Positions 15,001 to 18,000 of a DNA stretch of 36,905 nucleotides are shown here, one piece after another. Within the stretch, counting starts at the first letter, position 1. Each line of letters starts with the position of its first letter. Made by a program: the position numbers. This DNA comes from a virus (taxonomy: Duplodnaviria; Heunggongvirae; Uroviricota; Caudoviricetes). Location of the stretch: the IMG/VR virus record IMGVR_UViG_2645727604_000018, one strand, 5' to 3'.

Positions 15001-18000
15001 GAGGAGAAACGCCGCTTCGTTCACGTAGTTCTTTCATAAAAGAGCCGATCTGGTTATAGGGAAGGGCCGCATGGTGTTTGGTGATCTGAACTTTACTTGG
15101 CTGAGGCAACAGAGGTTTCAGCATACCTTTCCATGCGGCAGGATTATCACCTTCAAAGTATTCTTTGGCCTTGGCGTAATCGATCACTGTTTCAATACGT
15201 CCACGTAGACGACTGGCAGTTTCATTCTTGGTTAACCAGATAGGTTCCAGTATTGCCAGAAGATCGACTTTGGTGATTTCACTAACGGCCTTTTTGCCAA
15301 TGAAAGGGTAGGCATAGGTTTCCAGTGTGGAACGCCATTGCGCGAGATGTTTTTTGTTCTTCATCTCACTGTCTTTGACCTCCAGCACTTCTTCACAACA
15401 TTCGGCAAAGGTCTTTTTCTTCCGGGCCAGTATTTCCTGCCGGGCTTTTTGTTCGTGTTTTTCTTGAAGGGGATTAATACCATTACGGATTTGTTTACGT
15501 AGCTCACGCGCTTTGTCACGCGCTTCGGCTAAGGAGACTTCCGGGTAAGGGCCAAGCCCCATATTCAAACGTCTTGGAACTGTTCTACCGAGATTGTTGA
15601 TTCGGGTTCCCATAGCCACGCAAAGAACCCATGCACGGGACTGATTTCGGATGCGAAGGTATAAACCATCCACATTACCAACCGCATACATGCCTTCGGA
15701 TTTTAATCGTGATACGACGAGTCCTGATAGTTCCTTGGCCCTTTCAATGGCATTCGTCACACTTGATACAGAGTTGGCACATTCCTTGGTATTCTTTAAC
15801 ATTACTTTTTATCAACATCAGAATTTCGCATGTAGAAGGTAATCTAAGGTATTGAAATACTTATTGTTATTGTGATATATATAACATATGCAATGATAAG
15901 CGCATTTATAGTTTGCGGGTAATTTTTATCTTTTACTGATGGTGTTTATTATTAATGATCATTAATGTAATATATATTAAAATTATTTTTATGAGGTTCT
16001 ATTATGTCTGTTAATGATGCCAAAAAACTTGCGGATAAACTTTTCCCAATATTTGATGATGATGATATTTCTATCGTTGATATTCCCCCTGAGCAGCGTC
16101 GATTGCATACCGAGACTTACGATTTTTCAATATCAACACTCGTCGACTATTTGAAAAATGGTACTGTGTTTATTCCTGATTTTCAAAGGAAATATGTTTG
16201 GAGTAGAGGGCAGGCATCAAGATTAATTGAGTCTTTAATAATCCAGTGTCCTATCCCTGTTATTTATTTAAACCAAGAGAAAGATGAGAGTTTATCTGTT
16301 ATTGATGGTAATCAACGGTTGACTTCAATTAAACTATTTATTGAGGATGGTTTTGAATTACAGGGATTGACAGCATATCCAGAATTGGAGGGGAATTCGT
16401 TTTCATCACTGGACGCGAGATTCCGTAGGCATATTTTAAATCGCACATTGAGATGCATAACCATATTAAAAGAAACTCACCCTCAAATTAAAATTGATGT
16501 TTTTGAAAGAATAAATACAGGTGCAGTACAATTAAATCCTCAGGAGGTACGTCATGGAGTTTATCATGGTCCATTATTTACTATGATTGACGAAATAAGT
16601 GAGGAGAAAGTATGGAGAGACTTAACAGGAATTAAAAATGACACACGAATGAAGAATAATGAACTCATATTGAGAGCATTCGCACTTTCATATTCTGTGA
16701 CACCATATAAAAAACCATTAAAGAAATTCCTTAATGATTTTAGTTCTGAAAAACAAAATATTGAACCTGATGTTGCCTTGGAGTGGCGTAGTAGATTTCT
16801 TGGTGCATTAAACTGTATTAATAAATTGTTTGGTAAAAAAGCATTTAGAATTCTAAATGAAAACTTAGAGCCTCAAGTAAGAAATTTCAATTCTGCTTTA
16901 TTTGATGCTCTAATTGTCGGGTTTATGGTATCAAAATTTAATCAGGATATGATAAACGAACTTGATGCAACAAAACTTAAGGATTTCTTAATAGAGTTTC
17001 AAAGAATAACATCAGAGGAGCGTTTTAATGAGTCGATTACTTCTGGCACTTCGGCGACGCAATCGGTTCATTATCGTATTAGCACAATGAAAAATTTCAT
17101 TGAACGGTATTTCAACTGATGGCATATATTAAAAGCGCATCTAGAAAACAATTCGAGCAGATTCATTCCAATTTGCTTGAACAGGTTCGTTATGTTTCAA
17201 AAATAAAAGAATTAAGAACAGATATTATACATAGTGTTTATAATAACGCGATATTTCGAGTTTCTGCTGCATTCGAAGATTATATTAAAGATGTTTTGGA
17301 AGATTGGATTGACATGCTGAACCAAAATAACGGATGCCTTTCGCATCTACCTGATGAAATTATCTTGTTTTCTTTATTCAAAAACCAAGAGAAAAATTTT
17401 ATAAATTACGTTTCTCATGGTTCTGAGTCAATAATGATGAGTGACTTAAATAAGTGTAAGGATAAACTTCAGGCGTTATCGTCACCTAATTCTCCTGTAA
17501 AGCCTGTTATTGTCCCAAAACAGCTGATAATGGATAAAAAATATCCTTCCAAAAAAAATATCAAACTTCTTTTTAATAGATTTGGTATCAAAGATATATT
17601 AAAAGCAATGACTGCGAAAGGTAAAAAAGATTATGAGTTCATGCTCCAGTCTTTCTCTGATAGCCGCACGGAGTTAGCCCATTCATATTCTTCAATTAAT
17701 CTTTCAAAAGATACTGTTATTGATAAGCTAAATAATGTTAAAGAAATTGTTAGGATTATGGATAGGATATTATATTCACATGTCTGTGATAAAAGTGGTA
17801 GTGAATACTGGAAAACAGAACTGTTAGCGATTTAGTATTAATGCGGCTAATATCTTTAGCCGCATTGAAGTTGAAGCAACCTTTGACCACCATGTTTACT
17901 TTTATTGAGCAAACTCAAACGGCCTGACCATCCCATCCCGATTTGCATCAAGATAATCTGCCCACCACTGTAACATCAATCTTCTCTGTTCAAGATGTTT

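What the first reader, a model, noticed from the sequence alone, without database searches (positions are those of the whole stretch)
16004..17835. Translationally coupled DUF262 (ParB/GmrSD-like) plus HEPN-motif gene pair as candidate defence cassette
Two AT-rich genes with a 1-nt stop/start overlap. The first has the DUF262 hallmarks (PDFQRKYVW, DGNQRLTSI) of GmrSD-type modification-dependent nucleases, but lacks the usual DUF1524 HNH half. The second instead carries an R-x4-H motif (DSRTELAHS) in a helical C-terminal region, as in HEPN RNases. The pair is the only cargo of a small integrase-bearing module. A split ParB-like/HEPN arrangement suggests a nuclease-based abortive-infection or type IV restriction-like system that may not be described in this form.
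Basis: partly seen in the sequence, partly recalled or inferred. Interest (0 to 1): 0.8.

Follow-up and report, generated by a model that had tools for sequence, protein, structure and literature searches.

The report
PD-T4-2-like DUF262–HEPN defence gene pair
Two overlapping E. coli genes, a ParB-like nucleotide-binding DNA sensor and an HEPN ribonuclease, form a self-contained pair that is real and widespread, but it belongs to an already described and experimentally validated class of anti-phage system (PD-T4-2), so it is a new member, not a new kind.

Summary

The pair is a strictly conserved two-gene operon in about 45 species from at least 8 phyla, with no conserved third gene. The two proteins are inherited as a unit (r = 0.94 between their pairwise identities).

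The novelty claim fails. "DUF262, HEPN" is the composition of PD-T4-2, a validated anti-T4 system from E. coli ECOR65 (Vassallo 2022). Its B protein has the same top Pfam matches. "RiboL-PSP-HEPN in operon with ParB" was already tabulated in 2013.

The window pair is a diverged clade. A matches PADLOC's PD-T4-2_A model (9e-44), but B misses the PD-T4-2_B model.

In E. coli the pair lies, together with an extra integrase gene, in a 3.7-kb segment that is absent from strain 95NR1.

Most likely function: phage defence, with A as sensor and switch and B as RNase effector. The mechanism is inferred.

The parts
16004..17119 (+). Gene A: 371-aa DUF262 (ParB/Srx-fold, GmrSD_N) protein followed by an all-helical C-terminal domain (ParBDB-like). 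Motifs present: QRxxxW (Q61-W66), DGxQR (D101-R105), FxxxN (F167-N171). No DUF1524/His-Me nuclease domain.
17119..17835 (+). Gene B: 238-aa HEPN protein of the RiboL-PSP family, with the R183-x4-H188 catalytic-type motif at the end of helix 172-188. It carries about 100 residues more than a minimal HEPN domain, including a conserved KKYPSxKN loop (res 140-147).
17117..17121 (+). TGATG stop/start overlap (1 nt), consistent with translational coupling of A and B.
   Evidence: Sequence. In other genomes the A-to-B distance runs from -38 to +31 nt and is mostly -4 to +6 nt.
15993..15996 (+). GAGG ribosome-binding site, 7 nt upstream of the A start codon.
   Evidence: Read directly from the sequence.
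17843..17863 (.). Perfect 8-bp inverted repeat GCGGCTAA-tatct-TTAGCCGC between the convergent genes B and the integrase. It may be a transcription stop signal, but it has no T-run and the terminator scan did not call it.
   Evidence: Read from the sequence. Not among the terminator-like sites.
14525..15802 (-). Integrase 'int2' (425 aa; Arm-DNA-bind_3 + Phage_int_M + Phage_integrase). Together with A and B it makes up the extra 3.7-kb segment.
   Evidence: The segment is absent from strain 95NR1.
14221..14519 (.). Left copy of a 299-nt direct repeat (91% identical to the right copy). It is the 3'-end remnant of an int1-type integrase gene.
   Evidence: the repeat finder family D1. 95NR1 has a single copy.
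17896..18194 (.). Right copy of the 299-nt direct repeat. It is the 3' end of the intact integrase int1.
17902..19236 (-). Integrase 'int1' (444 aa, P4-type domain set), next to tRNA-Asn. It anchors the genomic island.
19350..19425 (-). tRNA-Asn (GTT), the integration target of the island.
   Evidence: ARAGORN. Rfam tRNA 72.6 bits.

Best explanation
The pair is a two-gene anti-phage system of the PD-T4-2 type: a ParB-like DUF262 protein plus a RiboL-PSP-family HEPN protein. E. coli acquired it horizontally, and it sits in an integrase-associated variable slot of a tRNA-Asn island.

Proposed mechanism, inferred from the better-studied DUF262 and HEPN proteins:
- Protein A binds DNA through its DUF262 domain and its helical ParBDB-like domain. 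It uses NTP binding or hydrolysis at the QRxxxW/DGxQR/FxxxN pocket as a switch that reports a phage-specific DNA feature. Candidates are modified T-even-type DNA or a replication intermediate.
- Protein B is made in fixed ratio with A through the TGATG coupling. It is held inactive in an A-B complex.
- On the trigger, B forms or exposes the composite R-x4-H active site of an HEPN dimer and cleaves RNA (tRNA, rRNA or mRNA). Translation stops, and so does phage multiplication, either by abortive infection or by growth arrest.

Shown here: the domain identities, the intact motifs, the strict two-gene conservation and co-inheritance, the mobile and variable context, and the homology of A to the PD-T4-2_A model.

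Inferred: the defence activity of this particular pair, the division into sensor and effector, the RNA target and the trigger.
For: Architecture:
- The architecture is the same as the validated PD-T4-2 ('DUF262, HEPN'). PD-T4-2B's top HHpred hits are PF18735 and PF18737, and window B's top Pfam hits are the same two.
- A matches PADLOC PD-T4-2_A at 9.2e-44 over profile positions 48-359 of 363.
- PD-T4-2 protects against T4 when cloned and in its native strain.

Folds and motifs:
- R183 and H188 are invariant in 46 of 46 homologues.
- A's closest structures are BrxU, SspE and DndI, which are DUF262 defence proteins, and the ParB CTPases. The three DUF262 motifs are invariant. Their proposed sensor/NTPase role is described in PMC12065111 and PMC10952713.

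Conservation:
- In 45 of 45 loci with intact downstream DNA, an ORF of 228-244 aa follows A; the A-to-B distance is mostly -4 to +6 nt (range -38 to +31).
- No third gene is conserved among 273 neighbouring ORFs.
- Pairwise identities of A and B correlate at r = 0.94.

Context:
- GC is 33% in a roughly 50% GC genome.
- The pair occurs in only 28 of 5426 complete E. coli genomes.
- Strain 95NR1 shows the empty site.
- In Citrobacter the pair lies at the integrase end of a Rac-like prophage. In Edwardsiella it lies between IS elements and an AAA_15 ATPase pair.
- In A. baumannii it is on plasmid pAB1 next to a RelE/ParE toxin-antitoxin pair.
- Related DUF262+HEPN pairs sit in P2-like prophage hotspots and on IncX1 plasmids.
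Against: - No experiment exists for this pair or its clade.
- Window B has no hit to any PADLOC model at E<1. Only 2 of 40 clade members touch PD-T4-2_B, weakly (0.0045). PADLOC would therefore not call the system, and B's homology to PD-T4-2B is shown only at the Pfam-family level.
- A scores higher on the Menshen NsnA model than on PD-T4-2_A.
- I could not obtain the PD-T4-2 protein sequences for a direct comparison.
- Outside Enterobacteria the nearest neighbours are mostly housekeeping genes. Among 144 nearest ORFs, 5 are integrases, 3 are methyltransferases and 3 are IS200 transposases. Defence-island association is therefore weak.
- A is unusually conserved for an immune sensor (median 51% identity across phyla).
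- The mechanism of PD-T4-2 itself is unpublished in the searchable literature.
Confidence: 0.65

Rival explanations
1. The pair is a toxin-antitoxin-like addiction module. Its main role would be to stabilise the mobile element that carries it (island, prophage end or plasmid). HEPN protein B would be the toxin, and the upstream ParB-like protein A its protein antitoxin or regulator. Phage defence would be incidental or absent.
For: - The gene order, with the regulator first and a stop/start overlap, is typical of type II toxin-antitoxin pairs.
- The closest structural matches of B are HEPN toxins of HEPN-MNT systems: 8xdj, 5yep and 7ae2.
- The pair occurs on the small A. baumannii plasmid pAB1 beside a RelE/ParE pair and a resolvase.
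- A related pair on IncX1 plasmids sits directly after the replication initiator gene.
Against: - A is not an MNT nucleotidyltransferase. At 371 aa, with a conserved NTP pocket, it is far larger and more conserved than typical antitoxins.
- In many genomes the pair sits among housekeeping genes with no mobile-element genes nearby, so there is nothing to stabilise.
- The architecturally equivalent PD-T4-2 does protect against phage.
- The two roles are not mutually exclusive.
Confidence: 0.15
2. The pair is a DNA-targeting, type IV restriction-like system. The ParB-like protein A would itself nick or cut phage DNA, as reported for some ParB-fold nucleases. The HEPN protein would serve as a non-catalytic specificity or regulatory subunit.
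For: - A's nearest solved structures are the modification-dependent restriction enzymes BrxU and SspE.
- PD-T4-2 was selected with T4. The ten T4-selected systems, of which PD-T4-2 is one, generally also protected against T2 and T6. All three phages have hypermodified DNA (glc-5hmC).
- A few loci have methyltransferase or restriction-enzyme neighbours.
Against: - In GmrSD, BrxU and SspE the cutting is done by the DUF1524 His-Me domain, which is absent here. The DUF262 domain in those enzymes is the NTPase/sensor.
- B keeps an invariant R-x4-H across phyla. This argues for a catalytically active RNase, not a scaffold.
Confidence: 0.1
3. The pair is a housekeeping or regulatory module unrelated to conflict, for example one that links nucleoid or DNA state to RNA processing.
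For: A is highly conserved across phyla, and many chromosomal copies lie among core metabolic genes.
Against: - The distribution is patchy: 28 of 5426 E. coli genomes.
- The base composition is foreign.
- There is presence/absence polymorphism next to integrases.
- The pair also occurs on a plasmid, and related DUF262+HEPN pairs occur in prophages and on IncX1 plasmids.
- Frameshifted copies exist in some genomes.
Confidence: 0.05

Closest known systems
PD-T4-2 (Vassallo et al. 2022, Nat Microbiol; E. coli ECOR65, contig QOYX01000002 338334-339873)
   Same: - It is a two-gene operon with a DUF262 protein that lacks DUF1524, followed by an HEPN protein.
- PD-T4-2B's best Pfam matches are HEPN_RiboL-PSP and then HEPN_MAE_28990, the same as window B.
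- Window A matches the PADLOC PD-T4-2_A model at 9.2e-44 over nearly its full length.
- It is also an accessory E. coli locus.
   Different: - The PD-T4-2 ORFs span 1540 bp against 1832 bp here. Its B protein is therefore markedly shorter (HHpred alignments end near residue 163) than the 238-aa window B.
- Window B does not hit the PD-T4-2_B model, and only 2 of 40 clade members hit it, at 0.0045.
- A scores higher on the NsnA model.
- Phage protection has not been tested for this clade.
- I could not compare the sequences directly.
RiboL-PSP-HEPN family 'in operon with ParB' (Anantharaman, Makarova, Burroughs, Koonin, Aravind 2013; Pfam PF18735)
   Same: B and 39 of 40 of its relatives match PF18735. 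The R-x4-H motif is conserved. The ParB-family gene neighbour is exactly the association tabulated in that paper.
   Different: That description is purely computational. No function or partner role was assigned. The name-giving fusion to endoribonuclease L-PSP is absent here.
Menshen (NsnABC; Millman 2022; Li et al. 2025 NAR)
   Same: A has the NsnA architecture of ParB-DUF262 plus a helical ParBDB-like domain. It gives the best PADLOC score on NsnA (5.6e-83, full length).
   Different: There is no NsnB ATPase and no NsnC effector next to A, either in the window or in any of 40 related loci. Li et al. separate PD-T4-2-type loci from Menshen by exactly this neighbourhood criterion. The PADLOC NsnA model also outscores PD-T4-2_A on every other DUF262+HEPN pair tested, so it is generic for this architecture.
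GmrSD / BrxU / SspE (type IV and PT-sensing DUF262-DUF1524 enzymes)
   Different: There is no DUF1524 His-Me nuclease domain. The effector is a separate HEPN protein, which implies an RNA target instead of a DNA target.
ParB/DUF262 + MAE_28990-family HEPN + DNA methyltransferase operons (Anantharaman 2013), and PD-lambda-5 'ParB/HEPN, methyltransferase' (Vassallo 2022)
   Same: These also combine a ParB-like protein with an HEPN protein. One example found here is in a P2-like prophage hotspot of E. coli GN04592 (L057): a DUF262 protein of 380 aa, 30% identical to A, plus an MAE_28990 HEPN protein.
   Different: Those operons carry a cytosine methyltransferase as a third gene and a different HEPN family. 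The window clade has no methyltransferase partner.
HEPN-MNT toxin-antitoxin systems (e.g. SO_3166/SO_3165)
   Different: The partner here is not a nucleotidyltransferase. B is about 100 residues longer than these minimal HEPN toxins.

Membership tests
PD-T4-2 | Two adjacent co-directional genes, DUF262 protein first and HEPN protein second | tested here: met
   ORFs 16004..17119 and 17119..17835 with a 1-nt overlap. PD-T4-2 is described as 'DUF262, HEPN' with two CDS.
PD-T4-2 | Gene A matches the PD-T4-2_A profile and has PF03235 without DUF1524 | tested here: met
   PADLOC PDLC04027 at 9.2e-44, profile positions 48-359 of 363. Pfam finds only PF03235. Caveat: the NsnA model scores higher.
PD-T4-2 | Gene B matches the PD-T4-2_B profile | tested here: not met
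   Window B has no PADLOC hit at E<=1. Two of 40 clade members hit PDLC04028, best E 0.0045. The shared Pfam family PF18735 shows a relationship only at the family level.
PD-T4-2 | Protects E. coli against T-even phages | not testable with these tools
   Needs plaque assays. Shown for PD-T4-2 only.
HEPN superfamily (RiboL-PSP family, PF18735) | Alpha-helical HEPN fold | tested here: met
HEPN superfamily (RiboL-PSP family, PF18735) | Conserved R-x4-6-H motif | tested here: met
   R183-TELA-H188. Both residues are invariant in 46 of 46 and 40 of 40 homologues.
HEPN superfamily (RiboL-PSP family, PF18735) | RNase activity | not testable with these tools
   A biochemical assay is needed.
Menshen (NsnABC) | NsnA-like ParB-DUF262 + ParBDB protein | tested here: met
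   PADLOC NsnA at 5.6e-83, full length. The helical C-terminal domain is seen in the AF2 model.
Menshen (NsnABC) | NsnB ATPase and NsnC effector genes immediately downstream | tested here: not met
   Downstream of A is the HEPN gene and then a convergent integrase. No conserved third gene is found in 40 loci.
GmrSD-type type IV restriction enzymes | DUF262 NTPase domain with the DGxQR motif | tested here: met
   PF03235 at 3.9e-27. DGNQR at residues 101-105 is invariant.
GmrSD-type type IV restriction enzymes | DUF1524 His-Me (HNH-like) nuclease domain, fused or adjacent | tested here: not met
   No such Pfam hit in A or B at E<0.1. Residues 179-370 of A are all-helical.
HEPN-MNT type II/VII toxin-antitoxin | MNT nucleotidyltransferase antitoxin partner | tested here: not met
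   The partner has a ParB/DUF262 fold.
Type III TA / AbiF-like HEPN with RNA antitoxin | Tandem-repeat antitoxic RNA upstream of the toxin gene | tested here: not met
   No tandem repeats in 15500-18100. No Rfam match near the pair.

The most novel reading that the evidence does not exclude
The window clade has a 371-aa A protein with a clade-specific, conserved N-terminal tail. Its 230-240-aa B protein carries an extra helical insert and a KKYPSxKN loop. Current defence-finder models do not capture B. This clade could be a mechanistically distinct system in which a ParB-type NTP-dependent DNA clamp or switch directly gates an HEPN RNase. That would be a sensor-effector coupling not yet demonstrated for any ParB-fold protein. 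It might have a trigger other than T-even DNA modification, given the clade's spread across at least 8 phyla and the unusually strong conservation of the sensor.
Probability: 0.2. Interest if true: 0.55.

Novelty: new member of a known kind. Interest (0 to 1): 0.3.

Why it matters
PD-T4-2-type systems have been shown to work, but their mechanism is unexplored: no mechanistic paper was found in the searchable literature. This clade offers a compact, well-behaved model for studying them. The predicted structures are confident. Both proteins have clear catalytic motifs to mutate. There is a natural presence/absence polymorphism in E. coli, and the pair is present in the reference EPEC strain E2348/69.

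It also exposes a practical gap. The HEPN partner of this widespread clade is invisible to PADLOC v2 models (568 clusters at 50% identity with E<=1e-3). Loci of this kind are therefore likely to go uncounted in defence-system censuses. Beyond that, the finding is an expected member of a described class.

Tried and rejected
- Direct comparison with PD-T4-2. I could not fetch RCO39066.1 or its unannotated neighbour. The accession appears in no searchable text. Distant blastn of the pair against 5426 E. coli genomes found only the 28 identical loci plus one 71-nt hit, which led to a different DUF262+MAE_28990 HEPN+Dcm locus. tblastn against plasmids and phages found other DUF262+HEPN clades (IncX1, pAB1, a Klebsiella P2-like phage). 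None of their B proteins hit the PD-T4-2_B model.
- Menshen. Rejected, because no NsnB or NsnC is present.
- GmrSD-type enzyme. Rejected, because no DUF1524 domain is present.
- A conserved third gene, such as a methyltransferase or an ATPase. None was found among 273 neighbouring ORFs in 40 loci.
- An RNA antitoxin or tandem repeats. None found.
- Promoter scan. The number of sigma-70-like sites is no higher than in shuffled sequence, so no promoter is claimed.
- Defence-island enrichment outside Enterobacteria. The signal is weak and heterogeneous. The 'pVip' hits are probably MoaA-type radical SAM enzymes, because MoaC, Mob_synth_C and Radical_SAM appear in the same neighbour set.
- A second copy of the tRNA-Asn 3' end that would mark the island boundary. 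None lies in the window.
- The short downstream ORFs in L019 and L011. These looked like possible PD-T4-2B-sized variants, but they are frameshift-truncated copies of the same B family.
- Sequence search of the PDB. No solved relative of B was found. A has only weak hits to BrxU.
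Full report
OBSERVATION

The window is E. coli chromosome. Positions 656-19449 are 99.87% identical to EPEC E2348/69.

Two ORFs lie where the finding says: A at 16004..17119 (371 aa) and B at 17119..17835 (238 aa). The junction reads AAC-TGA-TGG, so the TGA stop of A and the ATG start of B share one base. A GAGG ribosome-binding site sits 7 nt before the A start. A perfect 8-bp inverted repeat follows the B stop, but the terminator scan did not call it.

The pair is 32-37% GC, against 45-50% in the neighbouring integrase and core genes.

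WHAT THE PROTEINS ARE

Protein A matches Pfam GmrSD_N/DUF262 (PF03235, E 3.9e-27, residues 45-184). It matches nothing resembling DUF1524/HNH. The three DUF262 motifs defined in the literature are QRxxxW, DGxQR and FxxxN. Here they are Q61-W66, D101-R105 and F167-N171, and all are invariant in 38 homologues.

CONSERVATION ELSEWHERE

A has more than 1000 database relatives, many 50-66% identical and from different phyla.

A scan of one genome per species returned 53 loci. They come from Gamma-, Alpha- and Deltaproteobacteria, Bacteroidota, Acidobacteriota, Verrucomicrobiota, Bacillota, Planctomycetota and Eremiobacterota. In all 45 loci where A is intact and downstream DNA is available, an ORF of 228-244 aa follows A. 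The distance from A to that ORF runs from -38 to +31 nt and is mostly -4 to +6 nt.

These ORFs are homologues of B, 24-38% identical to window B. E53, P143, N147, G156, R183, H188, D215 and W231 are invariant. Thirty-nine of 40 match PF18735. Two shorter ORFs, in L011 and L019, are frameshifted copies of the same family.

An exhaustive profile search finds 568 clusters at 50% identity related to B at E<=1e-3, and 140 at E<=1e-30.

Among 273 neighbouring ORFs in 40 loci, no third gene is conserved. Across 465 locus pairs the identities of A and B correlate at r = 0.94. A is the more conserved protein in all but one pair, with a median identity of 51% against 32% for B.

This is therefore a self-contained two-gene unit that is inherited together, with a fast-evolving HEPN partner.

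GENOMIC CONTEXT

In E. coli the pair occurs in 28 of 5426 complete genomes, always at 99.7% identity or higher.

It lies between two tyrosine-integrase genes, beside tRNA-Asn. A 299-nt direct repeat, 91% identical between copies, flanks the segment of about 14520-17895 that holds int2, A and B. The repeat is the 3' end of an int1-type integrase gene. Strain 95NR1 has the same flanks with a single integrase and no int2-A-B segment, so it represents the empty site.

Elsewhere the pair appears in these settings:
- Between mtfA and the integrase end of a Rac-like prophage in Citrobacter.
- Between IS elements and an AAA_15 ATPase gene pair in Edwardsiella.
- On A. baumannii plasmid pAB1, next to a RelE/ParE pair.

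Outside these cases the neighbours are mostly ordinary genes. Integrases (5), methyltransferases (3) and IS200 transposases (3) form only a minority of the 144 nearest ORFs. The evidence from defence-island association is therefore modest.

COMPARISON WITH WHAT IS KNOWN

PD-T4-2 was recovered in a functional selection from E. coli ECOR65. It is recorded as 'DUF262, HEPN' with two CDS. It reduced T4 plaquing when cloned in MG1655, and deleting it sensitised ECOR65 to T4.

The HHpred table of that paper gives DUF262 as the top hit for PD-T4-2A. For PD-T4-2B it gives HEPN_RiboL-PSP (97.8%) and then HEPN_MAE_28990. These are the same two HEPN families, in the same order, as for window B.

The 2013 HEPN survey already lists 'Ribo L-PSP-HEPN: R-x4-H conserved; operon with ParB'. 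Two reviews group PD-T4-2 with Menshen and Dazbog as DUF262 systems that lack DUF1524.

PADLOC's PD-T4-2_A model matches window A at 9.2e-44 over nearly its full length. The Menshen NsnA model scores higher, at 5.6e-83. The NsnA model also outscores PD-T4-2_A on every other DUF262+HEPN pair I tested, so it is generic for the DUF262+ParBDB architecture. Menshen's defining NsnB and NsnC genes are absent.

Window B hits no PADLOC model. Only 2 of 40 clade members touch PD-T4-2_B, at 0.0045. PD-T4-2's two ORFs span 1540 bp against 1832 bp here, so its HEPN protein is clearly shorter.

I conclude that the window pair is a diverged clade of the PD-T4-2 kind, a ParB-DUF262 protein plus a RiboL-PSP-HEPN protein. 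It is not a new kind of system. I could not obtain the PD-T4-2 sequences, so strict family membership of B remains open.

Other ParB+HEPN arrangements turned up during the search:
- DUF262 plus a 180-aa HEPN protein on IncX1 plasmids.
- DUF262 plus an MAE_28990-family HEPN protein plus Dcm in a P2-like prophage hotspot.
- DUF262 plus a 220-aa unannotated protein with no PADLOC hit in a Klebsiella P2-like phage; its HEPN identity was not established.

These show that ParB-like DUF262 genes paired with a small downstream gene, an HEPN gene in two of the three cases, recur on mobile elements.

MECHANISM (INFERRED)

In GmrSD, BrxU and SspE the DUF262 domain binds and hydrolyses NTPs. It senses a DNA feature and licenses a nuclease domain. 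HEPN domains are generally RNases whose R-x4-6-H residues form a composite site across a dimer. They are kept in check by partner proteins, RNA or covalent modification.

The most economical model has three steps:
- A is the DNA-binding NTP switch and sensor.
- B is the RNase effector, made stoichiometrically through the TGATG coupling and restrained by A until infection.
- Once activated, B cleaves RNA and blocks translation, and with it phage production.

Residues 9-41 of A are conserved, but the model is low-confidence at its very N-terminus (pLDDT below 50 for residues 1-24). This tail is a candidate contact with B, but that is speculation. No tandem repeats or known RNA family lie near the pair, so an RNA antitoxin is unlikely.

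Rival readings are a toxin-antitoxin-like addiction module, a DNA-targeting system in which A is the nuclease, and a non-conflict housekeeping role. They are weighed in the rival-explanations section of this report.

VERDICT

The functional guess is reasonable. The novelty claim is not supported.

The pair is a new, diverged member of a known and validated class whose mechanism is still unknown. Interest is moderate to low (0.3). Its value lies in being a tractable model, present in the reference strain E2348/69, and in showing that current PADLOC models miss the HEPN partner of this widespread clade.

Noticed in passing
window 11784-13547 (- strand): This is a very AT-rich (27% GC) three-gene block: an MvdC/MvdD-like ATP-grasp peptide maturase (12627..13547; TIGR04187 2.9e-50, below the cut-off) and two unannotated proteins. 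It occupies a slot between pilV and the integrase. In strain 95NR1 that slot holds 'S-4TM family putative pore-forming effector' genes plus a hypothetical gene instead. The slot looks like a variable conflict or defence cargo site. Neither the ATP-grasp protein nor the 181-aa protein downstream has a PADLOC hit.
   Followed up: partly
window 12110: Relative to E2348/69 there is a 1-nt deletion here. It splits the 284-aa hypothetical gene, annotated as intact in E2348/69, into ORFs 11784..12107 and 12092..12637.
   Followed up: partly
window 14221-14519 and 17896-18194: A 299-nt direct repeat, 91% identical between copies, made of integrase-gene 3' ends brackets int2+A+B. Strain 95NR1 has one copy. 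The divergence suggests recombination between two different int1-type alleles, or tandem island accretion followed by deletion. It does not look like a site-specific duplication.
   Followed up: partly
window 14525-15802 (- strand): int2 is an uninterrupted 425-aa ORF with all three integrase domains. The window and E2348/69 show no differences across this gene. Even so, RefSeq annotates the region in E2348/69 as two integrase pseudogene fragments.
   Followed up: no
window 19449 onward, against L001: Collinearity with E2348/69 ends just past tRNA-Asn. In the window the island abuts mtfA, tRNA-Ser and a Rac-like prophage. In E2348/69 it abuts yeeO and further tRNA-Asn copies. The same island therefore sits at different tRNA-Asn genes in different strains.
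   Followed up: no
window 20559-24287 (- strand): A Rac-like prophage end lies next to tRNA-Ser: integrase (341 aa), DUF4224-type excisionase (67 aa) and an 813-aa RecE/exonuclease VIII-like protein. In Citrobacter portucalensis the A-B pair sits directly beside the integrase of a very similar prophage.
   Followed up: no
L057 3788-6664 (E. coli GN04592, P2-like prophage): This locus holds a DUF262 protein (380 aa, 30% identical to A), an MAE_28990/MAE_18760-family HEPN nuclease (226 aa) and a convergent DNA cytosine methyltransferase. It lies between the portal gene and the replication-endonuclease gene. It matches the 2013 'MAE_28990 with ParB and methylase' operon and resembles PD-lambda-5.
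   Followed up: partly
L055 2896-4536 (IncX1 plasmids of E. coli and Salmonella): A DUF262 protein (365 aa, 32% identical to A) is followed by a 180-aa HEPN protein with an RHAFAH motif. The A gene overlaps the end of the replication initiator gene. This B protein also has no PADLOC hit.
   Followed up: partly
protein A residues 1-41 (window 16004-16126): The N-terminal tail is strongly conserved: L9, A10, D11, F14, P15, then DIPPEQRRLHTETYDF. Yet its first part (residues 1-24) is predicted with pLDDT below 50. It is specific to this clade and absent from the IncX1 and P2-hotspot proteins. It could be a docking segment for B.
   Followed up: no
L019 6095-6900 and L011 4588-5133: Copies of B in Aminobacter and Chelatococcus are truncated by frameshifts, while A stays intact. 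This could be decay of the effector or assembly error.
   Followed up: partly
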